A stretch of DNA of 7,648 nucleotides from a virus. Its lineage: Duplodnaviria; Heunggongvirae; Uroviricota; Caudoviricetes. The stretch is from the IMG/VR virus record IMGVR_UViG_2693429623_000007, one strand, 5' to 3'. The notes under the pieces were generated by a model, which saw nothing but the letters and a program-made list of their open reading frames with translations, was not told where the DNA came from and did not search any database. Positions within the stretch are counted from its first letter, which is position 1, and every line of letters starts with the position of its first letter. Positions 1 through 7,648 of this stretch are shown one piece after another. The translations under genes and the position numbers were made by a program.

Positions 1-155
1 ACCTGGACAATATCCTGAAAGCACCACTGGATGCGCTGACGCATGCCGGACTACTCATAGACGACGAGCAGTTTGATGAAATCAATATTGTGCGCGGTCA
101 GCTCGTTCCTGGGGGGCGGCTGGGCGTGAAGATTTACAAAATTGAGAGTGAGTGA
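1..155 (+). CDS. rusA: Holliday junction resolvase RusA, 3' end (5' partial; starts upstream of window)
   Basis: Frame from nt 3 translates to LDNILKAPLDALTHAGLLIDDEQFDEINIVRGQLVPGGRLGVKIYKIESE*, stop TGA 153-155. Matches the C-terminal region of E. coli RusA as I recall it (DLDNL..DAL..AG...DD...GGRL); recall-based, not searched. Confidence 0.8.
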   Translation, partial: LDNILKAPLDALTHAGLLIDDEQFDEINIVRGQLVPGGRLGVKIYKIESE

Positions 156-706
156 TCGTAAATATGATATATCCGGAAATTACAGGCAAAAGCGGCGAGC
201 ATTTACGTCTAAAAACGCTGGAAGCCGTCTGGATCCAGGGGAAATTACGGATGTGGGGGCGTTGGTCGTATATAGGTGGTGGCAAACCAGGAAATATGTT
301 CAATCAGTTGCTGGCATCCAAAAAACTGACAAAAACCGCGGTCAATGAAGCCCTGCGTAGAATCAGGGAGTCAGGGATTGATAAACCAGAGCTGGAAGCA
401 TTCTTGCGAGAGATGATCGCTGGCAGACAGAAGAGCTGGTTGTCTCACTGTACTGATGCAGAGGCGTTACGCATTGATGGGGTGATAAGTAAAGCGCTTG
501 CACGTTATCCTGGATTGATTGATATCCTGCGGCAAAGGTACGAAGGGCGGGGGATGAGTAAACGCAAAATGGCTGAATTGTTGAATGAGGTGCACCCGGA
601 ATGGTGTTTTAGTACATGCGAAAAGCGAATTGCTAATTGGTTGGCTGTTGCTGAATATGCGCTATACATCCCTATGCGAGAATCGTTTGCTCAAAAAATG
701 TCTTGA
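152..706 (+). CDS. Putative late-gene antiterminator Q (non-lambda Q family), assigned mainly by synteny
   Basis: 184-aa ORF directly after rusA (GTG 152 overlaps the rusA stop as GTGA; alternative ATG at 164), followed by a promoter-like element and an intrinsic terminator. Contains a W-G-x-W stretch (LRMWGRWS) reminiscent of DLP12-type Q proteins. Family call is uncertain. Confidence 0.55.
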   Translation: MIVNMIYPEITGKSGEHLRLKTLEAVWIQGKLRMWGRWSYIGGGKPGNMFNQLLASKKLTKTAVNEALRRIRESGIDKPELEAFLREMIAGRQKSWLSHCTDAEALRIDGVISKALARYPGLIDILRQRYEGRGMSKRKMAELLNEVHPEWCFSTCEKRIANWLAVAEYALYIPMRESFAQKMS

Positions 707-731
707 TTTTTTACGCATAAACTGTTTCAAT
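703..731 (+). promoter_or_regulatory. Candidate late promoter (pR'-like) downstream of the Q-like gene
   Basis: TTGATT (703-708), 17-nt spacer, TTCAAT (726-731) preceded by TG at 723-724 (extended -10 like). Lies about 60 nt upstream of an intrinsic terminator, the arrangement expected for pR'/tR'. Confidence 0.4.
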
Positions 732-790
732 CCAGCTACGCTTCGCAAAGCTATACCGCGAGGCGAATAGCAGACATGGACACCTGAAAG

Positions 791-814
791 AACCCGCTTT
801 ATGCGGGTTTTTTT
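791..814 (+). terminator. Rho-independent terminator (tR'-like)
   Basis: Stem cccgc (793-797), loop tttat, stem gcggg (803-807), then seven T's (808-814). Confidence 0.7.
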
Positions 815-937
815 GTGCCCGAAAAGCGGTACAGGACGTTAAATGCGCTGGTGGTTGCGAATGCCGGTCTTTCAGCTTGCTGGCTTTTTCGACAAGAGGT
901 ATTGGTATGTCACGTTAACCGGAAAAGGGAAAAAGGC

Positions 938-1135
938 ATGCTAAAACAGCAGGATATGACCGAAACCGCCAGAGTGGTGTTTAATGAATTAAGCGTCACC
1001 GAACCGGCGACCGTCGGGGAAATTGCGCAGAATACTTACCTTTCACGCGAACGCTGCCAGTTAATCCTGACCCAGCTTGTTATGGCGGGTCTGGCAGATT
1101 ATCAGTTCGGTTGTTACAGACGCCTTCCGCAGTGA
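938..1135 (+). CDS. Small hypothetical protein (65 aa), possible helix-turn-helix DNA-binding protein; allele 1
   Basis: ATG 938 preceded by purine-rich aaaagggaaaaagg. The longer track ORF from 815 would start inside the terminator region, so the internal ATG is preferred. Product MLKQQDMTETARVVFNELSVTEPATVGEIAQNTYLSRERCQLILTQLVMAGLADYQFGCYRRLPQ; the stretch ATVGEIAQNTYLSRERCQLILTQL looks like an HTH. A near-identical allele is at 1826-2023. Confidence 0.6.
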   Translation: MLKQQDMTETARVVFNELSVTEPATVGEIAQNTYLSRERCQLILTQLVMAGLADYQFGCYRRLPQ

Positions 1136-1144
1136 AGGCTTTTT
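1122..1144 (+). terminator. Rho-independent terminator overlapping the stop codon of the 65-aa gene
   Basis: Stem gccttc (1122-1127), loop cgcagt, stem gaaggc (1134-1139), then five T's (1140-1144). The same structure recurs at about 2009-2033 and 2201-2223. Confidence 0.5.
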
Positions 1145-1184
1145 AATTTGTGGTAATGGGCGGCTGGTGGGTGTTAGCGGCNTC

Positions 1185-1601
1185 CAGTATCCGGATGGTA
1201 AGCCGCCGGTATGGGCAAAGTGTACGAAAGGTGTGTATCCGTCTTACTGGGAAGAATGGAAAAAAGTCAGGGAGGTGGTAAAAGTTGCCTGTCCGGAGTG
1301 TGGCGGAAAGGGTGAGGTTTCCACCGCCTGTAAGGATTGCCGTGGGCGTGGTGTCGCCATTCATCGTGAAGAGTCGGTAAAACGTGGTATGCCTGTTATC
1401 AGAGACTGCCAGCGTTGTGGTGGTCGTGGCTATGAAAGACTACCATCAACGGAGGCATTTAATGCTATATGCGAGGTGACAAACCAGATAACACGCGCGT
1501 CATGGGAAAAAACAGTTAAGAAATTTTATGATGCGCTGGTGACCCGGTTTGATATTGAAGAAGCATGGGCTGAGCGGCAGTTAAAAAAGGTAACTAGGTA
1601 A
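1185..1601 (+). CDS. Lambda-type antiterminator Q, C-terminal fragment (5' truncated at the junction n at 1182)
   Basis: Translation contains CPECGGKGEVSTACKDCRGRGVA...CQRCGGRGYERLPS...YDALV...KVTR*, matching the zinc-binding C-terminal region of lambda Q as recalled (CRDCHGTGRA...CGRCKGVGYSRMP...YDALV...AVTR). The first 35 codons of track ORF 1077-1601 lie in a repeat that is intergenic in the other copies, so the true N-terminus is missing. Confidence 0.75.
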   Translation, partial: QYPDGKPPVWAKCTKGVYPSYWEEWKKVREVVKVACPECGGKGEVSTACKDCRGRGVAIHREESVKRGMPVIRDCQRCGGRGYERLPSTEAFNAICEVTNQITRASWEKTVKKFYDALVTRFDIEEAWAERQLKKVTR

Positions 1602-1606
1602 CAAGG

Positions 1607-1634
1607 TTGATTTTTCCGGAATCTGTGGTAAATT
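1607..1634 (+). promoter_or_regulatory. Lambda-like late promoter pR'
   Basis: TTGATT (1607-1612), 16-nt spacer, TAAATT (1629-1634). The downstream text ggtaaattcgtcataacgatggg closely resembles the lambda pR' initial transcribed region (GGTAAATTTGACTCAACGATGGG, from memory). Confidence 0.65.
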
Positions 1635-1681
1635 CGTCATAACGATGGGCGTTTTATGCCTGACGTTAGAAGAGTTTCTAC

Positions 1682-1706
1682 AACCCGCCGCCGAGCGGGT
1701 TTTTTA
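1682..1706 (+). terminator. Rho-independent terminator tR' (lambda-like)
   Basis: Stem cccgc (1684-1688), loop cgccga, stem gcggg (1695-1699), then six T's (1700-1705); about 45 nt after the predicted pR' start. Confidence 0.7.
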
Positions 1707-1735
1707 TGACTGAAATCGCGTCAGTACAGTAAACG

Positions 1736-2112
1736 CGCTGGTGGCGGTGAATACCTGTCTTTCAGCTTGCTGGCTTTTTCGACAAGAGTTATTGGTGTGT
1801 CACGTTAACCGGAAAAGGAAAAGACATGCTAAAACAGCAGGATATGACAGAAACCGCCAGAGTGGTGTTTAATGAATTAAGCGTCACCGAACCGGCGACC
1901 GTCGGGGAAATTGCGCAGAATACTTACCTTTCACGCGAACGCTGCCAGTTAATACTGACCCAGCTGGTTATGGCGGGTCTGGCAGACTATCAGTTCGGTT
2001 GTTACAGACGCCTTCCGCAGTGAAGGCTTTTTTATTTGTGGTAAATGGGCGGCTGGTGGGTGTTAGGGGCACCCACCAGCCATCTGCTCATGCGTTGGGT
2101 TCACAAGCAAAC
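1736..2112 (+). repeat. Copy 2 of the duplicated unit containing the 65-aa gene
   Basis: Diverged allele of 848-1181; runs into the N gap at 2113. Confidence 0.8.
1826..2023 (+). CDS. Small hypothetical protein (65 aa), HTH-like; allele 2
   Basis: The track gives the same 65-aa protein as 938-1135; the DNA differs at scattered positions, implying synonymous changes. Same terminator at its stop. Confidence 0.6.
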   Translation: MLKQQDMTETARVVFNELSVTEPATVGEIAQNTYLSRERCQLILTQLVMAGLADYQFGCYRRLPQ

Positions 2113-2179
2113 NNNNNNNNNNNNNNNNNNNNNNNNNNNNNNNNNNNNNNNNNNNNNNNNNNNNNNNNNNNNNNNNNNN
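2113..2179. other. Assembly gap (67 N)
   Basis: Run of n; flanks are two copies of the same repeat unit. Confidence 1.
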
Positions 2180-2302
2180 ATCAGTTCGGTTGTTACAGAC
2201 GCCTTCCGCAGTGAAGGCTTTTTAATTTGTGGTAATGGGCGGCTGGTGGGTGTTAGCGGCACCTGCCAGCCATCTGCTCATGCGTTGGGGTCACAAGCAA
2301 AC
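2180..2302 (+). repeat. Copy 3 (partial) of the duplicated unit: last 11 codons of the 65-aa gene plus downstream
   Basis: atcagttcggttgttacagacgccttccgcagtgaaggc... matches 1102-1181 and 1989-2112. Confidence 0.8.
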
Positions 2303-2364
2303 CTCAGGCCCATCTGCTTTGCGCAAAAGCGGTATGAGCCTATCAGAGAAGTGCTTATTGATCT

Positions 2365-3070
2365 ATGGCCAATACTGTAAAAATATCCAGTTGTGAGTTA
2401 ATCAACGCTGATTGCCTGGAATTTATCCAGACCTTACCGGAAAATTCTGTCGATCTGATAGTCACAGACCCGCCATACTTTAAAGTGAAGCCCGAGGGCT
2501 GGGATAACCAGTGGGAGGGCGACGATGATTACCTGAAATGGCTGGACCAGTGTCTGGCGCAGTTCTGGCGGGTGCTGAAACCTGCCGGAAGTCTTTACCT
2601 GTTCTGTGGTCATCGCCTGGCATCTGATATCGAAATCATGATGCGTGAACGCTTCAGTGTGCTGAACCATATTATCTGGGCGAAGCCGTCCGGACGCTGG
2701 AACGGATGCAACAAGGAAAGCCTGCGGGCGTATTTCCCCGCCACAGAGCGCATTCTGTTCGCGGAACATTATCAGGGGCCGTATCGTCCGAAAGATGCCG
2801 GGTATGCGGCGAAGGGCAGTGCACTGAAACAGCATGTGATGGCCCCGCTGATTTCTTACTTTCGTGATGCGCGAGCTGCCCTGGGGATAACGGCAAAACA
2901 GATTGCAGATGCCACAGGAAAGAAAAACATGGTGTCGCACTGGTTCAGTGCCGGTCAGTGGCAGTTGCCGAATGAAAGCGATTATCTGAAATTACAGGCG
3001 CTGTTTGCCCGGGTGGCAGAAGAGAAGCATCGGCGTGGTGAACTGGAAAAGCTCCACCACCAGCTGGTGG
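2365..3070 (+). CDS. DNA N6-adenine methyltransferase, beta class, N-terminal 235 codons (3' end interrupted by N gap)
   Basis: MANTVKISSCELINADCLEFIQTLPENSVDLIVTDPPYF...; catalytic motif IV DPPY at 2467-2478. Track ORF 2365-3102 runs through the gap. The gene continues in the segment 3694-4037. Confidence 0.8.
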
Positions 3071-3081
3071 NNNNNNNNNNN
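3071..3081. other. Assembly gap (11 N)
   Basis: Run of n inside the methyltransferase reading frame. Confidence 1.
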
Positions 3082-3150
3082 TGGCACAGGGGCGCGAGCT
3101 AAAACAGCACGTCATGGCCCCGCTGATTTCTTACTTTCGTGATGCGCGTA
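3082..3150 (+). pseudogene. Isolated 69-bp internal fragment of a divergent methyltransferase allele, between two N runs
   Basis: Matches 2811-2878 with several substitutions in the first 30 bp; the segment ...catggccccgctgatttcttactttcgtgatgcgcg is shared. Confidence 0.6.
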
Positions 3151-3179
3151 NNNNNNNNNNNNNNNNNNNNNNNNNNNNN
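3151..3179. other. Assembly gap (29 N)
   Basis: Run of n. Confidence 1.
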
Positions 3180-4037
3180 GCGCAGTTCTGGCGGGTGCTG
3201 AAACCTGCCGGAAGTCTTTACCTGTTCTGTGGTCATCGCCTGGCATCTGATATCGAAATCATGATGCGTGAACGCTTCAGTGTGCTGAACCATATTATCT
3301 GGGCGAAGCCGTCCGGACGCTGGAACGGATGCAACAAGGAAAGCCTGCGGGCGTATTTCCCCGCCACAGAGCGCATTCTGTTCGCGGAACATTATCAGGG
3401 GCCGTATCGTCCGAAAGATGCCGGGTATGCGGCGAAGGGCAGTGCACTGAAACAGCATGTGATGGCCCCGCTGATTTCTTACTTTCGTGATGCGCGAGCT
3501 GCCCTGGGGATAACGGCAAAACAGATTGCAGATGCCACAGGAAAGAAAAACATGGTGTCGCACTGGTTCAGTGCCGGTCAGTGGCAGTTGCCGAATGAAA
3601 GCGATTATCTGAAATTACAGGCGCTGTTTGCCCGGGTGGCAGAAGAGAAGCATCGGCGTGGTGAACTGGAAAAGCTCCACCACCAGCTGGTGGATACGTA
3701 TACCTCACTGAACCGGCAGTATGCGGAGCTGCTGAGTGAATATAAACATCTGCGGCGGTATTTTGGCGTGACGGTGCAGGTGCCGTATACCGATGTGTGG
3801 ACGCATAAACCGGTGCAGTTCTATCCCGGGAAACATCCGTGCGAAAAACCGGCAGAAATGCTGCAGCAGATAATCAACGCGAGCAGTCGTCCGGGAGACC
3901 TGGTTGCAGATTTTTTTATGGGTTCAGGTTCAACGGTAAAAGCGGCGATGGCACTGGGGCGTTGTGCGATTGGTGTTGAGCTGGAGACCGGACGTTTTGA
4001 ACAGACAGTCAGGGAAGTTCAGGATTTAATCGTTTGA
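3180..4037 (+). CDS. DNA N6-adenine methyltransferase, beta class, codon approx. 65 to stop (5' truncated by N gap)
   Basis: 3180-3693 appears identical to 2557-3070 (514 bp). The C-terminal part carries the AdoMet-binding motif I, FFMGSGST. Motif IV before motif I is the beta-class order. Stop TGA 4035-4037. Reconstructed full gene is about 349 aa. Confidence 0.8.
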   Translation, partial: AQFWRVLKPAGSLYLFCGHRLASDIEIMMRERFSVLNHIIWAKPSGRWNGCNKESLRAYFPATERILFAEHYQGPYRPKDAGYAAKGSALKQHVMAPLISYFRDARAALGITAKQIADATGKKNMVSHWFSAGQWQLPNESDYLKLQALFARVAEEKHRRGELEKLHHQLVDTYTSLNRQYAELLSEYKHLRRYFGVTVQVPYTDVWTHKPVQFYPGKHPCEKPAEMLQQIINASSRPGDLVADFFMGSGSTVKAAMALGRCAIGVELETGRFEQTVREVQDLIV

Positions 4038-4098
4038 AACGGATGAGATTGCAGAATTAATTACGCACCATTATTATTCTGCTCCCGGCCCTTTAGCN

Positions 4099-4395
4099 CT
4101 GCGGCGGTATTTTGGCGTGACGGTGCAGGTGCCGTATACCGATGTGTGGACGCATAAACCGGTGCAGTTCTATCCCGGGAAACATCCGTGCGAAAAACCG
4201 GCAGAAATGCTGCAGCAGATAATCAGCGCTAGCAGTCGTCCGGGTGACCTGATTGCAGATTTTTTCATGGGGTTGGGTTCGACAGTGAAAGCGGCACTGG
4301 CGCTCGGGCGTCGTGCAATTGGCGTTGAGCTGGAGACTGAACGTTTTGAGCAGACGGTTCGGGAAGTACAGGATTTAGTCAGCCAGAACGGATGA
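4099..4395 (+). CDS. Methyltransferase C-terminal fragment, second allele (5' truncated at the junction n at 4098)
   Basis: In-frame from 4099. Product ...VTVQVPYTDVWTHKPVQFYPGKHPCEKPAEMLQQIISASSRPGDLIADFFMGLGSTVKAALALGRRAIGVELETERFEQTVREVQDLVSQNG* differs from the 3751-4037 allele by scattered substitutions and a 5-aa longer tail. Confidence 0.7.
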   Translation: MRRYFGVTVQVPYTDVWTHKPVQFYPGKHPCEKPAEMLQQIISASSRPGDLIADFFMGLGSTVKAALALGRRAIGVELETERFEQTVREVQDLVSQNG

Positions 4396-4435
4396 TATTG
4401 AAGAATTAATTACGCGTCGTTATTATGCGGCTCCC

Positions 4436-4511
4436 GGCCCTTTAGCTCAGTGGTGAGAGCGAGCGACTCATAATCGCCAGGTCGCTGGTTCAAATCCAGC
4501 AAGGGCCACCA
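4436..4511 (+). tRNA. tRNA-Ile2/Met, anticodon CAU (ileX/ileZ-like)
   Basis: Hand-folded cloverleaf: acceptor GGCCCTT/AAGGGCC, D arm GCTC-AGTGGTGA-GAGC, anticodon loop CTCATAA, T arm GCTGG-TTCAAAT-CCAGC, discriminator A, encoded CCA. Resembles E. coli ileX as recalled. Confidence 0.85.
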
Positions 4512-4518
4512 TCACATA

Positions 4519-4595
4519 CCGCCATTAACTCATCAGGATAGAGCGCCAGCCTTCGAAGCTGGTTGCGCGGGGTTCGAGTCCTCGATGGCGGTCCA
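4519..4595 (+). tRNA. tRNA-Arg, anticodon UCG
   Basis: Acceptor CCGCCAT/ATGGCGG (7 bp), anticodon stem CCAGC/GCTGG with loop CTTCGAA, T loop TTCGAGT, encoded CCA. The D stem has one A-C mismatch. Confidence 0.75.
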
Positions 4596-4608
4596 TTATC
4601 TGCATCAT

Positions 4609-4685
4609 GCGTTGTTAGCTCAGCCGGACAGAGCAATTGCCTTCTAAGCAATCGGTCACTGGTTCGAATCCAGTACAACGCGCCA
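4609..4685 (+). tRNA. tRNA-Arg, anticodon UCU
   Basis: Acceptor GCGTTGT/ACAACGC, D arm GCTC-AGCCGGACA-GAGC, anticodon stem ATTGC/GCAAT with loop CTTCTAA, T arm ACTGG-TTCGAAT-CCAGT, encoded CCA. Confidence 0.85.
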
Positions 4686-4698
4686 CGCTTATTTTTCC

Positions 4699-4723
4699 AG
4701 GCTCGCTTCGGCGGGCCTTTTTC
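4699..4723 (+). terminator. Rho-independent terminator after the tRNA cluster
   Basis: Stem aggctcgc (4699-4706), loop ttcg, stem gcgggcct (4711-4718, one G-U pair), then T-run to 4722. Confidence 0.55.
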
Positions 4724-4860
4724 ATATCCGCGCCACGCCCGGCGCACATCAAAAAACCACAGAGCCTTTCAGGGGTGAGCTTACGGGATGGTCAGTGTGA
4801 CTTTCTCTGTGGGCTGGTCACCCCCGGGCGCAGGCTCACCCACTAAAAGGAAAAGTCACG

Positions 4861-5286
4861 ATGTTTGGTATTTTCAAAAAGAAAACCCGCAAGGCCATTA
4901 CCGAGGTGAAGAAGATGGAGAACCGTGACGCAGTGGAGGCGACCGTCTGGGGCGCGTACTCCATTGCATACGCTGACGGCACCTGTGACGCGAAAGAAAT
5001 CGCGGTACTGGAAAAAACCATTGCAGCACTTCCTGTCTTTGCGCCGTTCTCCGGTGAGATTGCACAAATGAGTGCAAATATCCGCGCCCGTTATGAAGCG
5101 TCGCCGCGTTCTGCCAATGCCGAAGCTCTTCGTCAGCTGGCTGATGTTGCCGGTACTGATGATGCAGTTAATGTGCTGTGCCTGTGTCTGGATATCGCTG
5201 ACCAGGACGGTATCGCTCAGGAAGAAGAAGCGCAACTGAAGAAAATTGCGCAGGCGCTGCAGTTGCCGCTGGAGCAGTACCTGTGA
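4861..5286 (+). CDS. TerB-like (tellurite-resistance TerB family) domain protein, 141 aa
   Basis: ATG 4861 with aaaaggaaaag upstream. Two internal half-repeats of the form A-x-A-DG...E...L..IA.AL (AYADGTCDAKEIAVLEKTIAAL and DIADQDGIAQEEEAQLKKIAQAL), the arrangement I recall for TerB. Family call is from memory. Confidence 0.55.
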   Translation: MFGIFKKKTRKAITEVKKMENRDAVEATVWGAYSIAYADGTCDAKEIAVLEKTIAALPVFAPFSGEIAQMSANIRARYEASPRSANAEALRQLADVAGTDDAVNVLCLCLDIADQDGIAQEEEAQLKKIAQALQLPLEQYL

Positions 5287-5435
5287 AAAGTGCGCGCCTT
5301 GTGCTGGCTGTCATCCTGTTGTTTCTGGTAGTGGTGGTTGATTTCACCGGACGACTGATGTCGGTGCTGGCAGATGGTGTGCTGGTGGCGATGGCGCTGG
5401 TCGTGCTCCGGCCTTTACTGCGTAAATCTGAATAA
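5283..5435 (+). CDS. Small hydrophobic protein (50 aa), putative membrane peptide
   Basis: GTG 5283 overlaps the upstream stop as GTGA; ggag lies 10 nt upstream. Product VKSARLVLAVILLFLVVVVDFTGRLMSVLADGVLVAMALVVLRPLLRKSE*. Below the 60-aa cutoff of the ORF track. Speculative. Confidence 0.35.
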   Translation: MKSARLVLAVILLFLVVVVDFTGRLMSVLADGVLVAMALVVLRPLLRKSE

Positions 5436-5444
5436 CATCACACA

Positions 5445-5481
5445 AAAGGCATCTGCGGATGCCTTTGACGGGGTGTTTTTT
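5445..5481 (+). terminator. Perfect 9-bp hairpin followed by a T-run; putative terminator or attenuator before the lysis genes
   Basis: aaaggcatc (5445-5453), loop tgcg, gatgccttt (5458-5466), then gacggggtg and six T's (5476-5481). Confidence 0.4.
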
Positions 5482-5520
5482 ACGGGTCGCTGGTGGCCCT
5501 TTTTTATTTTCAGGAGGAAG

Positions 5521-5914
5521 TATGTCTGAACCCTTATCCGGTTCCGGCACGGCTGCGGCGCTGGGGGGCGCGACGGTATTCGGGCTGTTTACCGGGATGG
5601 ATTTCGGGATTGTGTTTGGCGCGTTCGCCGGGGCGTTATTTGTGGCAACGATGCCGCAGTCACTTTCAGTCTGGCGCGTGGTGGCGCATTTTCTGGTGTC
5701 GTTTATTGTCGGCGTGCTGGGAGCGCGTGTGCTGTCAGCCTGGATTGCATCAAAAACAGGGTATGACGGTACATCAGCAGATGCGCTTTGCGCGGTGCTG
5801 GTCTCGGTGGTGTCGGTGAAGATTCTCTCGTTCATCCACCAGCAGGATATTGCATCGCTGGTGTCCGGTGTGTTCTCCCGCCTGCGGGGTGGAGGAGGCG
5901 GCAATGTTAAGTAA
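5521..5914 (+). CDS. Putative holin-like membrane protein (131 aa)
   Basis: ATG 5521 with strong SD caggaggaag. The track start at 5459 falls inside the upstream hairpin and is rejected. Gly/Ala-rich hydrophobic segments suggest about 3 TM helices by eye. It is the first gene of a cluster ending in an M15 endolysin. Atypical for a holin: the C-terminus is GGGGGNVK rather than strongly charged. Confidence 0.5.
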
Positions 5915-6179
5915 CCTTCCCGGATTGCTGAATGTGGCGTTATGCACGGTTATCGTGCTGACGCTCTTTTTTTATCGTCGCCGTGATTCCAGACATAAAC
6001 CGCTGGTGTCATGGCTGGCCTGGCTGCTGATGCTGCTGTATGCCTTTGCGCCCCTCAGCTATCTGTGTGGTCGCCCGTTAGCAACGGGCTGGCTGGAAGT
6101 GTTTTTTAACCTGCTGTTCTGCGTGCTGGTGATACGCGCACGCGGGAACGTCACAAAAATCTTTCCATTGTTGAGGTGA
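5904..6179 (+). CDS. Lysis-associated membrane protein (92 aa; second holin or antiholin candidate)
   Basis: ATG 5904 preceded by ggaggagg; overlaps the upstream stop by 11 nt. Product MLSNLPGLLNVALCTVIVLTLFFYRRRDSRHKPLVSWLAWLLMLLYAFAPLSYLCGRPLATGWLEVFFNLLFCVLVIRARGNVTKIFPLLR*, about 3 hydrophobic segments by eye. Stop TGA 6177-6179. Confidence 0.5.
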   Translation: MLSNLPGLLNVALCTVIVLTLFFYRRRDSRHKPLVSWLAWLLMLLYAFAPLSYLCGRPLATGWLEVFFNLLFCVLVIRARGNVTKIFPLLR

Positions 6180-6181
6180 AT

Positions 6182-6559
6182 ATGCCGGGTAAATTCAGAT
6201 TCAGCCGTCGCAGTGAAAAAAATCTGGAGGGTGTCAAACCACAGCTGGTTGCTGTAGTTCGCCGTGCGCTGGAGCTGACGGAGGTTGATTTCGGTATTAC
6301 GGAAGGCCTGCGCAGTAAGTATCGCCAGAAACAGCTGGTTGCGGAAGGGAAAAGCCAGACCATGAACAGCCGCCACCTGACCGGTGATGCGGTGGATGTT
6401 GTGGCCTACATTGGCAGTCAGGTGTCATGGGAGTGGCCTCTGTACGAGAAAATCGCACAGGCATTTAAGCAGGCTGCCGCAGAGCTGGGGATCGCTATCG
6501 AATGGGGCGGGGACTGGAAAACGCTGAAAGACGGACCTCACTTTCAGCTGAAGCGATAA
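6182..6559 (+). CDS. Endolysin, peptidase M15 family (L-alanyl-D-glutamate peptidase / VanY-like)
   Basis: ATG 6182 after gaggtg (the track uses GTG 6176). Putative zinc ligands in SRHLTGDAVD (H-x6-D) and DGPHFQL, as in T5-type endolysins (recalled). Directly follows two membrane-protein genes. Confidence 0.8.
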   Translation: MPGKFRFSRRSEKNLEGVKPQLVAVVRRALELTEVDFGITEGLRSKYRQKQLVAEGKSQTMNSRHLTGDAVDVVAYIGSQVSWEWPLYEKIAQAFKQAAAELGIAIEWGGDWKTLKDGPHFQLKR

Positions 6560-6566
6560 GTAAAAC

Positions 6567-6599
6567 AAAACCCCGGCTGGGGGAACAGTCCGGGGTTTT
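6567..6599 (+). terminator. Rho-independent terminator after the endolysin (3' side abuts N gap)
   Basis: aaaaccccgg ... ccggggtttt, a GC-rich stem with a 13-nt loop and four T's before the N run. Confidence 0.5.
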
Positions 6600-6823
6600 N
6601 NNNNNNNNNNNNNNNNNNNNNNNNNNNNNNNNNNNNNNNNNNNNNNNNNNNNNNNNNNNNNNNNNNNNNNNNNNNNNNNNNNNNNNNNNNNNNNNNNNNN
6701 NNNNNNNNNNNNNNNNNNNNNNNNNNNNNNNNNNNNNNNNNNNNNNNNNNNNNNNNNNNNNNNNNNNNNNNNNNNNNNNNNNNNNNNNNNNNNNNNNNNN
6801 NNNNNNNNNNNNNNNNNNNNNNN
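6600..6823. other. Assembly gap (224 N)
   Basis: Run of n between the endolysin terminator and the lipoprotein gene. Confidence 1.
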
Positions 6824-6857
6824 GCTGTTCTGATTTGGGCTGTGCGTTGGTGGTGAT

Positions 6858-7040
6858 ATGGCGCGAAAACACTGGACACACAGAATGCCGCGAACGGCGG
6901 TGAAACGGGCACTGGTAGCGATACTGGTGCCTTTTTTATTGGTGGGGTGCGTCAGCCTGGATAAGGCGCGCCAGCTTTTCGATACCGCGTCTCAGGTCTG
7001 TGAAATTGTCGACGGTGTTCGGCAGTGTCTGCAGAACTGA
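6858..7040 (+). CDS. Small lipoprotein (60-aa precursor); possible o-spanin (Rz1-like) or other outer-membrane lipoprotein
   Basis: ATG 6858 after ggtggtga. Basic N-region MARKHWTHRMPRTAVKR, hydrophobic core ALVAILVPFLL, lipobox LVGC. Mature part of about 37 aa with two further Cys. Not proline-rich as lambda Rz1 is, so the spanin assignment is weak. Confidence 0.45.
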   Translation: MARKHWTHRMPRTAVKRALVAILVPFLLVGCVSLDKARQLFDTASQVCEIVDGVRQCLQN

Positions 7041-7214
7041 TCGCCTGTAAGAGCAGAATATTTTGCTGAAAAATGAAGGATGCGCCAGCGTCCGGTAAGC
7101 ATGAAATTCTGTGTTTGTGGCTACTCAATAAAATAAATTCTTTCTGTCGCCGCGAATACTCAAATGTTGATCAGTGCCCGGTGCGGCGACGGGCTTCGAT
7201 ATCAGGAGACGATG

Positions 7215-7608
7215 ATGGAAAAAAACAGAAAACAAACCGATTGTAATTGGTGCTGATGCTGCTCCGTTTAAGTTTGAGTTGTCTCAACTGGTGGAGATGC
7301 GTATCAGTGATGAATGGGGTGAGGTTAAAGCCCGCGCGCAGTATGCGGATGGCGAAAACCAGTACTTGATCCACTACAAAGCAGCTGATGGTCGCGCCAC
7401 GACGGAGTGGTTTGGTGAGTCAATGCTGGAAGCAACAGAAGATGATCGTCATCCGGGTTGTCCGGTATTTGCCGGTATGAAATTACCGGAAGGTGCAGTT
7501 GAACTGCAGCCGGGTGAGGTGTTCGTAATGACAGACATCATTGATGGTAAACCGCAGTATTCGCGTATTGAAATGAATAGTAAGAGTGCTCGCCTGATTC
7601 GTGAGTAA
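7215..7608 (+). CDS. Hypothetical protein, apparently frameshifted at an A7 tract (7219-7225); uninterrupted frame runs 7279/7297-7608
   Basis: ATGATG at 7212-7217 with SD aggag at 7204-7208 opens a frame that stops after 14 codons. The long frame (W K K T E N K P I V I G ... ARLIRE*, stop 7606-7608) has no ATG until 7297 and no SD for the TTG at 7279 or the ATG at 7297. Removing one A from the tract fuses the SD-preceded start to the long frame, giving about 131 aa. Confidence 0.5.
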
Positions 7609-7648
7609 CAGGCATTACAGCAGCCCTTCACTCTAAGGGGTTGCTGTA

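What the first reader, a model, noticed from the sequence alone, without database searches (positions are those of the whole stretch)
1105..4446. N characters mark junctions between paralogous prophage alleles; the window is a chimeric scaffold
At each single n or N run the flanking sequence switches between near-duplicate segments. The 65-aa gene unit occurs three times (848-1181, 1736-2112, 2180-2302) and similarity ends exactly at n 1182. Methyltransferase segment 2557-3070 is repeated at 3180-3693, with a third divergent piece at 3082-3150. Segment 4038-4097 is a variant of 4388-4446 and reaches the first bases of the tRNA-Ile (ggccctttagc) before n 4098 jumps back into a methyltransferase allele. 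The tandem duplications are therefore more likely assembly concatenation of 2-3 related prophages than real tandem repeats, and copy number and adjacency here should not be trusted.
Basis: seen in the sequence. Interest (0 to 1): 0.6.

Follow-up and report, generated by a model that had tools for sequence, protein, structure and literature searches.

The report
Assembly-made false duplications in prophage scaffold
The apparent tandem repeats of a small gene and a DNA methyltransferase are not biology: this short draft-genome scaffold strings together overlapping pieces of at least two similar E. coli prophages, joined at N characters, so it is an ordinary assembly artefact.

Summary
The window is the whole of a 7,648-bp draft scaffold (NCBI GCA_001259815.1, CXCR01000189.1). 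It covers the late region of a lambdoid, Stx-phage-like E. coli prophage: RusA, Q antiterminator, a 65-aa gene, a DNA methyltransferase, tRNA Ile/Arg/Arg, TerB, holins and an endolysin.

Six N runs cut it into seven pieces. Seven of the 18 repeat endpoints abut an N, against 0.03 expected by chance. At five junctions the next piece starts 123-888 nt upstream of where the previous piece ended in reference coordinates. Only the 224-N run is a true gap, 173 nt long in references.

Removing the redundant pieces leaves a 4,548-nt path. It aligns as one block to a complete ETEC genome over a span of exactly 4,548 nt, with every gene intact. None of 5,426 complete E. coli genomes spans the N1182 junction, and at N4098 the listed hits carry the two halves in the normal permuted order.

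At most two alleles are present at any position, so two prophages suffice. Pieces C, E and F also switch allele type internally, so phase inside N-free stretches is uncertain too. The finding has no biological novelty. Its value is data hygiene.

The parts
1..1181 (+). Piece A, L001-like allele. It holds the RusA 3' end (3-155), the DUF1133/Q-like antiterminator gene (164-706), a terminator-like hairpin near 792-815, the 65-aa gene (938-1135) and 46 nt of downstream spacer.
   Evidence: 99.83% identical to AST85 L001 3001-4181, 2 mismatches. Pfam assignments.
1182..1182 (.). Single N: a false join with an implied gap of -888 nt.
   Evidence: Alignments of the junction query stop at the N. 0 of 5,426 complete genomes span it. 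No match in genome contigs. Implied gap.
1183..2112 (+). Piece B, second prophage allele. It starts about codon 135 of an Antiterm (PF03589, zinc-finger) Q gene, which ends at 1601, and continues through a terminator (1682-1701), a full 65-aa gene (1826-2023) and spacer.
   Evidence: 99.0% identical and contiguous to the TOE17 ompW-site prophage, L003 6001-6930. Pfam.
2113..2179 (.). 67 N: a false positive-length gap. The flanks overlap by 123 nt in reference coordinates.
2180..3070 (+). Piece C. It holds the last 35 nt of the 65-aa gene, the spacer, and methyltransferase codons 1-235. Its first 81 nt are identical to the end of A. Positions 2180-2573 are L001-like (0 mismatches) and 2574-3070 are L005/L003-like.
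3071..3081 (.). 11 N: a false gap, implied -264 nt.
3082..3150 (+). Piece D, a 69-nt internal methyltransferase fragment of the L001-type allele. It encodes AQGRELKQHVMAPLISYFRDAR.
   Evidence: 100% identical to L001 4728-4796. It has 3 mismatches to C/E over the 50 alignable nt.
3151..3179 (.). 29 N: a false gap, implied -319 nt.
3180..4097 (+). Piece E. It runs from methyltransferase codon ~65 to the stop (4037), then the spacer and the first 11 nt of tRNA-Ile. Positions 3180-3693 duplicate C 2557-3070 exactly. Positions 3180-3827 are L005-like and 3828-4097 are L001-like (0 mismatches).
4098..4098 (.). Single N: a false join, implied gap -348 nt.
   Evidence: In the complete genomes listed, the two halves lie 348 nt apart in permuted order inside one gene, as 2 pieces. 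Implied gap.
4099..6599 (+). Piece F. It starts at methyltransferase codon ~255. Positions 4099-4225 are identical to E 3750-3876, and 4230-4429 are a third sequence type. From 4430 it is L001-like: tRNA-Ile (4436-4511), tRNA-Arg (4519-4595), tRNA-Arg (4609-4685), TerB (4861-5286), DUF3927 (5283-5435), two holins (5522-5914 and 5904-6179) and the M15 endolysin (6182-6559).
6600..6823 (.). 224 N: a genuine sized gap. References have 173 nt here.
   Evidence: F ends at L001 7548 and G starts at 7722.
6824..7648 (+). Piece G, L001-like. It holds small lysis-region ORFs (6858-7040, with a lipobox-like LVGC, and 7240-7608).
   Evidence: 100% identical to L001 7722-8546.

Best explanation
The window is one small short-read scaffold in which contigs, or contig extensions, from at least two co-resident and closely related lambdoid prophages were chained by read-pair links through shared sequence. 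The two prophages are 89-95% identical in this region.

Because the pieces cover overlapping parts of the same prophage interval, writing them out one after another creates false tandem copies of the 65-aa gene and the methyltransferase. Each copy boundary is marked by a single N or a short N run. These marks are where the scaffolder expected a small or negative gap, or where the gap-filler extended both edges past each other without merging them.

Shown here: the joins are not real adjacencies, and the duplicates collapse to one normal gene set.

Inferred: the mechanism is greedy scaffolding plus bidirectional gap extension of the SSPACE/GapFiller kind, and the alleles come from prophages of one genome.
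For: Source and boundaries:
- The window equals the whole record CXCR01000189.1 of GCA_001259815.1.
- Seven of 18 repeat endpoints abut Ns, against 0.028 expected and a maximum of 2 in 200,000 trials.
- Every junction cuts a gene or tRNA mid-way: Q at about codon 135, the 65-aa gene 35 nt before its stop, the methyltransferase at codons ~235, ~65 and ~255, and tRNA-Ile after 11 nt.

Mapping to references:
- A, D, F and G are colinear with the AST85 prophage at 98-100%. B matches a different prophage (TOE17) at 99%.
- Five junctions give negative implied gaps, and the sixth gives +173 nt against 224 N.
- C and E share 514 nt at 100%, and A and C share 81 nt at 100%. These are unmerged overlaps.

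Collapse to a normal locus:
- Merged C+E is a full-length N6_N4_Mtase, profile positions 1-219 of 221. It aligns in one piece to single loci in 1,916 complete genomes.
- The collapsed path of 4,548 nt aligns as one HSP to a reference span of 4,548 nt with all ORFs intact.

Adjacency tests:
- The N1182 adjacency is in 0 of 5,426 complete genomes.
- The N4098 halves appear only in the normal permuted order in the rows shown.

Background:
- Several copies of this module per genome are normal: median 2 and up to 15 places, and up to 6 methyltransferase-tRNA places.
- GapFiller extends both edges base by base with majority voting. It refuses to close unless the insert length fits the estimated gap within 50 nt (PMC3446322).
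- The Sanger pipeline paper states that SSPACE and GapFiller are greedy and can make false joins (PMC5320598).
- A gap between duplicated copies on one scaffold is a listed hallmark of false duplication (PMC9516828; PMC2864568).
Against: - No reads, depth or pair information could be examined, so the joins are refuted by comparison rather than directly.
- The assembler actually used for this record was not verified. The accession is not in the paper library.
- That SSPACE writes a single n for a negative gap is my recollection of its documentation. It was not found in the papers read.
- No complete genome carries either phasing of the second allele at more than 97.1%, so the exact sequences of the two prophages cannot be reconstructed.
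Confidence: 0.93

Rival explanations
1. The same scaffolding artefact, but the two alleles come from two different E. coli strains in a mixed or contaminated culture rather than from two prophages of one genome.
For: Nothing in the window says how many genomes contributed. The best references for the two alleles are different strains: AST85 for A/D/F/G and TOE17 for B.
Against: Complete single-isolate E. coli genomes routinely carry several copies of this module: median 2 and up to 15 places per genome, and up to 6 methyltransferase-tRNA places. A mixture is therefore not needed. The record is deposited as a genome assembly of an isolate.
Confidence: 0.05
2. The tandem duplications are real, for example a rearranged or partially duplicated prophage late region, and the Ns are only uncalled bases or short unsequenced stretches.
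For: Lambdoid prophages do recombine and are mosaic. The two Q-gene types upstream of the same module show this.
Against: - It would need all five rearrangement breakpoints to coincide with Ns, which never happened in 200,000 random placements.
- The A|B junction is absent from 5,426 complete genomes and from species-representative genomes.
- The E|F halves occur only in normal order in the rows shown.
- Every copy is truncated mid-gene.
- The 100% identical 514-nt copies flank a 109-nt stretch made only of Ns and a 69-nt fragment of the same gene.
Confidence: 0.015
3. The Ns are masking laid over an otherwise continuous sequence.
For: Some collections mask stretches with N, as the description of the genome-contig collection says.
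Against: The flanks of five runs overlap each other in reference coordinates, giving negative gaps. The sixth run is 224 N where references have 173 nt. The public record itself carries the Ns and has gene products containing X.
Confidence: 0.005

Closest known systems
False duplications flanking assembly gaps (Kelley & Salzberg 2010, PMC2864568; Ko et al. 2022, PMC9516828: 'heterotype' and 'homotype' false duplications)
   Same: Two variants of one locus are assembled separately and linked by read pairs to the same neighbours. They are placed next to each other on one scaffold with a gap between the copies, which creates false extra genes. Both kinds are present here. Divergent copies (A/B, B/C, E/F, and D against C/E at 89-95%) resemble heterotype duplications. 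Identical copies (C/E at 100% over 514 nt, A/C at 100% over 81 nt) resemble homotype or gap-filling duplications.
   Different: The variants here are most likely paralogous prophages of a haploid bacterium, not the two haplotypes of a diploid. So two real copies probably exist, but elsewhere in the genome and not in tandem. Read-depth and read-pair criteria could not be applied.
Greedy scaffolding plus gap extension, the SSPACE + GapFiller style used in the Sanger prokaryote pipeline (PMC5320598, PMC3446322)
   Same: The window has variable-length N runs and single Ns. Sequence extended from both gap edges overlaps without being merged. Allele switches occur inside extended contigs at short shared stretches, which fits majority-vote single-base extension.
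   Different: The software used for GCA_001259815.1 was not verified. Other assemblers and scaffolders could leave similar traces.
Late-regulatory and lysis region of lambdoid, Stx-phage-like prophages (phiP27 and Stx2 phages)
   Same: The gene order is the same: Q antiterminator, 65-aa gene, N6-adenine-type DNA methyltransferase, ileZ/argN/argO tRNAs, a cargo slot, two holins and an M15 endolysin. The window is 90% identical to phiP27 over 68% of its length.
   Different: The cargo slot holds TerB and DUF3927 genes instead of stx2e. The closest relatives are prophages of ETEC-type strains.

Membership tests
False (assembly) duplication on a scaffold | An assembly gap lies between the duplicated copies on the same scaffold. 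| tested here: met
   All five main repeat pairs have at least one endpoint abutting an N run. Seven of 18 endpoints do so, against 0.028 expected.
False (assembly) duplication on a scaffold | The copies collapse to a single copy in gap-free assemblies of related genomes. | tested here: met
   The collapsed path of 4,548 nt is one HSP over 4,548 nt of AST85. Merged C+E aligns in one piece in 1,916 complete genomes.
False (assembly) duplication on a scaffold | The adjacency written in the scaffold is absent from real genomes. | tested here: met
   For N1182, 0 of 5,426 genomes span the junction and there is no match in genome contigs. For N4098 the halves are 348 nt apart in permuted order as 2 pieces. 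Only the top rows were inspected.
False (assembly) duplication on a scaffold | Reduced or abnormal read depth on the copies, and discordant read pairs across the gap. | not testable with these tools
   No reads are available.
Genuine tandem duplication | A continuous, sequenced junction between the copies. | tested here: not met
   Every junction is an N.
Genuine tandem duplication | The copies are consistent units, with the same boundaries and a head-to-tail period. | tested here: not met
   The steps back differ (888, 123, 264, 319 and 348 nt), and each piece starts or ends mid-gene.
Lambdoid / Stx-phage-like prophage late region | A Q-type antiterminator gene upstream of the late genes. | tested here: met
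   DUF1133 scores E=5e-103, with Phage_antitermQ at E=1.7e-6. Piece B matches Antiterm PF03589 at E=9.5e-32.
Lambdoid / Stx-phage-like prophage late region | The methyltransferase, ileZ-argN-argO tRNA and lysis cassette order. | tested here: met
SSPACE/GapFiller-type pipeline product | Assembly metadata that name these tools. | not testable with these tools
   The accession was not found in the paper library.
SSPACE/GapFiller-type pipeline product | Both gap edges extended past each other and left unmerged, with residual Ns. | tested here: inconclusive
   The C/E 514-nt identical overlap and the A/C 81-nt overlap fit the closure rule in PMC3446322, but they are not specific to that software.

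The most novel reading that the evidence does not exclude
The allele switches inside N-free pieces are real. These are C at 2539-2573, E at 3828-3876 and F near 4430. On this reading one prophage of the isolate carries a methyltransferase whose central ~1.25 kb was replaced by gene conversion from a co-resident prophage. That would be a caught-in-the-act exchange between resident prophages rather than a chimeric contig.
Probability: 0.4. Interest if true: 0.15.

Novelty: not a real feature. Interest (0 to 1): 0.06.

Why it matters
It matters only for data quality. The scaffold is public, and its gene calls already feed protein collections. They include a 245-aa 'methyltransferase' containing XXXX, 285-aa and 92-aa methyltransferase fragments, and a 144-aa Q fragment containing X.

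Anyone counting gene copies, methyltransferase families, prophages or tandem duplications from such drafts would score false gene gains and false truncations. The simple signature seen here can flag these cases without reads: repeat endpoints that abut N runs, and negative implied gaps against a complete relative.

Tried and rejected
1. I searched genome contigs for the A-N-B junction. There were no matches. This is a weak test, because that collection has one genome per species and the source region may be absent or masked.

2. I looked for the accession in the literature to learn which assembler was used, and found nothing. The scaffolder-evaluation paper does not document how negative gaps are written, so the link from a 'single n' to SSPACE remains a recollection.

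3. I tested whether pieces C, E and F are allele hybrids. I re-phased E 3180-3876 with F 4226-4520 into a hypothetical second-prophage methyltransferase. Its best full-length match in complete genomes was 97.0%, no better than the 97.1% for C+E as assembled. This is inconclusive, and I do not claim either phasing.

4. I considered three prophages. This is not required, because no reference position is covered by more than two distinct sequences: A equals C where they overlap, and C equals E.

5. I considered N masking and rejected it, because of the negative implied gaps and the 224 N against 173 nt mismatch.

6. An Rfam scan found only the three tRNAs. The promoter scan found nothing above the shuffled expectation.
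Full report
**What is in the window.**
The window has six N runs: 1182 (1 N), 2113-2179 (67), 3071-3081 (11), 3151-3179 (29), 4098 (1) and 6600-6823 (224). They split it into seven pieces:

| Piece | Coordinates |
|---|---|
| A | 1-1181 |
| B | 1183-2112 |
| C | 2180-3070 |
| D | 3082-3150 |
| E | 3180-4097 |
| F | 4099-6599 |
| G | 6824-7648 |

An exact-protein look-up of the X-containing ORF 2365-3102 shows that the window is the complete public record CXCR01000189.1 of NCBI assembly GCA_001259815.1, 7,648 bp long. It is therefore a whole small scaffold, not an excerpt.

**Gene content.**
Gene content comes from Pfam and from the annotation of near-identical complete genomes. In order it is: the RusA 3' end, a DUF1133/Q-like antiterminator, a 65-aa gene, an N6_N4 DNA methyltransferase, tRNA-Ile/Arg/Arg, TerB, DUF3927, two holins and an M15 endolysin. 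This is the late region of a lambdoid, Stx-phage-like prophage. It is 90% identical to phiP27 over 68% of the window. The best complete-genome matches are mostly human isolates and include named ETEC strains such as H10407.

**Checking the observation.**
- 2557-3070 equals 3180-3693, 514 nt at 100%.
- 803-1181 matches 1695-2070 at 92.4%.
- 1989-2112 matches 2180-2302 at 95.2%.
- 1101-1181 equals 2180-2260, 81 nt at 100%.
- 3750-4097 matches 4099-4446 at 89.1%.
- 3099-3148 matches the methyltransferase at 94%.

E ends with GGCCCTTTAGC, the first 11 nt of the tRNA that begins at 4436.

The only corrections are small. The repeat starts a little earlier than stated (803/1695). The 65-aa gene is complete twice, at 938-1135 and 1826-2023. 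The third 'copy' is just its last 35 nt plus spacer.

Seven of the 18 distinct repeat endpoints lie directly against an N run. When the same six runs were placed at random 200,000 times, the mean was 0.028 and the maximum 2.

**Testing the interpretation against gap-free genomes.**
I mapped each piece to three references: the AST85 prophage (L001), the TOE17 ompW-site prophage (L003) and a third prophage (L005).

| Piece | Maps to | Identity |
|---|---|---|
| A | L001 3001-4181 | 99.8% |
| D | L001 4728-4796 | 100% |
| F | L001 5049-7548 | 98.0% |
| G | L001 7722-8546 | 100% |
| B | L003 6001-6930, contiguous | 99.0% |
| C | L001 4101-4989 | 92% |
| E | L001 4478-5395 | 90% |

A, D, F and G are colinear on L001. 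B begins about 134 codons into a different, zinc-finger Q antiterminator gene. C and E overlap each other and the pieces around them in reference coordinates.

The implied gaps at the six junctions are -888, -123, -264, -319, -348 and +173 nt. Only the 224-N run is a true gap. References have 173 nt there, so the N count is a size estimate and not a mask.

**Collapsing the redundancy restores a normal locus.**
Joining C and E through their identical overlap gives 1,295 nt. This aligns in a single piece over 100% of its length to single methyltransferase loci in 1,916 complete genomes. It encodes a 349-aa protein that matches the Pfam methylase profile end to end.

The path A + C(2261-3070) + E(3694-4097) + F(4447-6599) is 4,548 nt long. 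It aligns as one HSP to L001 3001-7548, a span of exactly 4,548 nt. All ORFs are intact: 180, 65, 349, 141, 91 and 125 aa plus the first holin.

**Testing the adjacencies directly.**
A 160-nt query centred on N1182 finds 2,274 genomes, but none covers more than half of it, and the alignments stop at the N. The same junction as a pattern is absent from species-representative genomes.

A 160-nt query centred on N4098 is 'covered' in 229 genomes. In the rows shown, it appears as two pieces spanning 348 nt of the record. That is the two halves in their normal, permuted positions inside one methyltransferase gene.

**How many alleles, and is the phase reliable?**
At every reference position the window holds at most two distinct sequences: A=C≠B, C=E≠D, and E≠F. 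Two prophages are therefore sufficient.

Mismatch positions show that the N-free pieces themselves change type.

| Stretch | Mismatches to L001 | Mismatches to L005 |
|---|---|---|
| C 2180-2573 | 0 | 19 |
| C 2574-3070 | 71 | 6 |
| E 3180-3827 | 93 | 6 |
| E 3828-4097 | 0 | 13 |
| F 4230-4429 | 38 | 36 (also 33 to L003) |
| F 4430-6599 | 4 | not aligned beyond 4722 |

- E's left end corresponds to C position 2557. That lies inside C's 35-nt switch zone (2539-2573).
- E 3750-3876 is identical to F 4099-4225, and the two diverge at 3877/4226.
- All L001-like stretches together (A, C 5' part, D, E 3' part, F 3' part, G) differ from AST85 at only 6 of about 4,900 positions.

The simplest reading is one AST85-like prophage plus a second prophage (B + C 3'/E 5' + F 5'), with C, E and F being hybrids made by extension through short shared stretches.

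I tested this by re-phasing the second allele. Its best full-length match was 97.0%, no better than the 97.1% for the allele as assembled. The test is inconclusive, and a natural mosaic formed by gene conversion between resident prophages remains possible.

**Mechanism: what is shown and what is inferred.**
Shown: the joins are not real adjacencies, and the duplicates are redundant representations of one interval.

Inferred: read pairs anchored in sequence shared by two prophages linked allele-specific contigs into one chain, and gap extension from both edges then produced identical overlaps that were never merged.

This fits published descriptions.
- GapFiller extends each edge one base at a time with a 0.7 majority vote at allelic differences. 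It closes a gap only if the extensions overlap by at least 10 nt and the insert length is within 50 nt of the estimated gap. Otherwise it goes on extending (PMC3446322).
- The Sanger prokaryote pipeline runs SSPACE and then 120 GapFiller iterations, and notes that both are greedy and can make false joins (PMC5320598).

Whether this assembly came from that pipeline is not verified. That SSPACE writes a single n for an unresolved negative gap is my recollection only (one search found no statement).

**Comparison with the known.**
This is the bacterial, paralogue-driven counterpart of the false segmental duplications described for diploid assemblies. There, two variants of a locus are placed side by side with a gap between them (PMC2864568). 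[quoted passage not shown]

Both divergent ('heterotype'-like) and identical ('homotype' or gap-filling) duplicates occur here. The depth and read-pair criteria could not be tested.

**Rivals.**
- A strain mixture instead of two prophages in one genome cannot be excluded. It is unnecessary, because complete genomes carry a median of 2 and up to 15 places matching this window.
- Real tandem duplication would need five breakpoints to coincide with Ns, and it is contradicted.
- Masking is contradicted by the negative gaps.

**Verdict.**
The duplications are not a real feature, and the underlying prophage region is of a well-known kind. The practical consequence is that copy number, adjacency and possibly allele phase in this scaffold should not be used. 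The truncated and X-containing proteins called on it are artefacts.

Noticed in passing
Complete relatives have 173 nt here. The gap hides the start of a 37-aa ORF (L001 7641-7754), whose end is at window ~6824-6856.
   Followed up: yes
window 4861-5435: A TerB-family gene and a DUF3927 gene lie between the tRNA cluster and the holins. This is the cargo slot where phage phiP27 carries stx2eA/B (L006 3438-4673).
   Followed up: partly
window 4436-4511: ARAGORN calls this tRNA Met (anticodon CAT). RefSeq and phiP27 annotate the same gene as tRNA-Ile (ileZ), the usual ambiguity for CAT-anticodon Ile tRNAs.
   Followed up: partly
window 938-1135 and 1826-2023; hairpins at 1122-1139, 2010-2027 and 2201-2218: The 65-aa protein is identical (WP_000917767.1) in prophages that have unrelated Q antiterminators. 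It has only a sub-threshold TrmB-like winged-helix hit (E=0.0026), and each copy ends in the same terminator-like hairpin. Its function is unknown.
   Followed up: partly
window 164-706 versus 1185-1601: Two unrelated antiterminator types sit upstream of the same 65-aa/methyltransferase module: DUF1133/Phage_antitermQ, and Antiterm PF03589 with a DnaJ-type CXXCXGXG zinc finger. Similarity between the two alleles begins at 803/1695, just downstream of a terminator-like hairpin (1682-1701 in B). This looks like a classic lambdoid mosaic boundary.
   Followed up: partly
window 2539-2573, 3828-3876 and 4226-4430: N-free pieces C, E and F switch between reference-allele types at short shared stretches, and E's left end falls inside C's switch zone. 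They are either chimeric contigs or a natural gene-conversion mosaic. The re-phasing test was inconclusive.
   Followed up: yes
L004 (= the window) gene calls 1167-1601, 2365-3102, 3180-4037 and 4117-4395: Public gene calls on this scaffold include X-containing and truncated antiterminator and methyltransferase products. These artefacts sit in protein collections.
   Followed up: partly
L002 (NZ_JBRERL010000002.1, labelled plasmid pE300082_261): A near-identical prophage late region lies on a 262-kb record annotated as a plasmid. It has two extra hypothetical genes inserted between the DUF1133 gene and the 65-aa gene, and only two of the three tRNAs.
   Followed up: no
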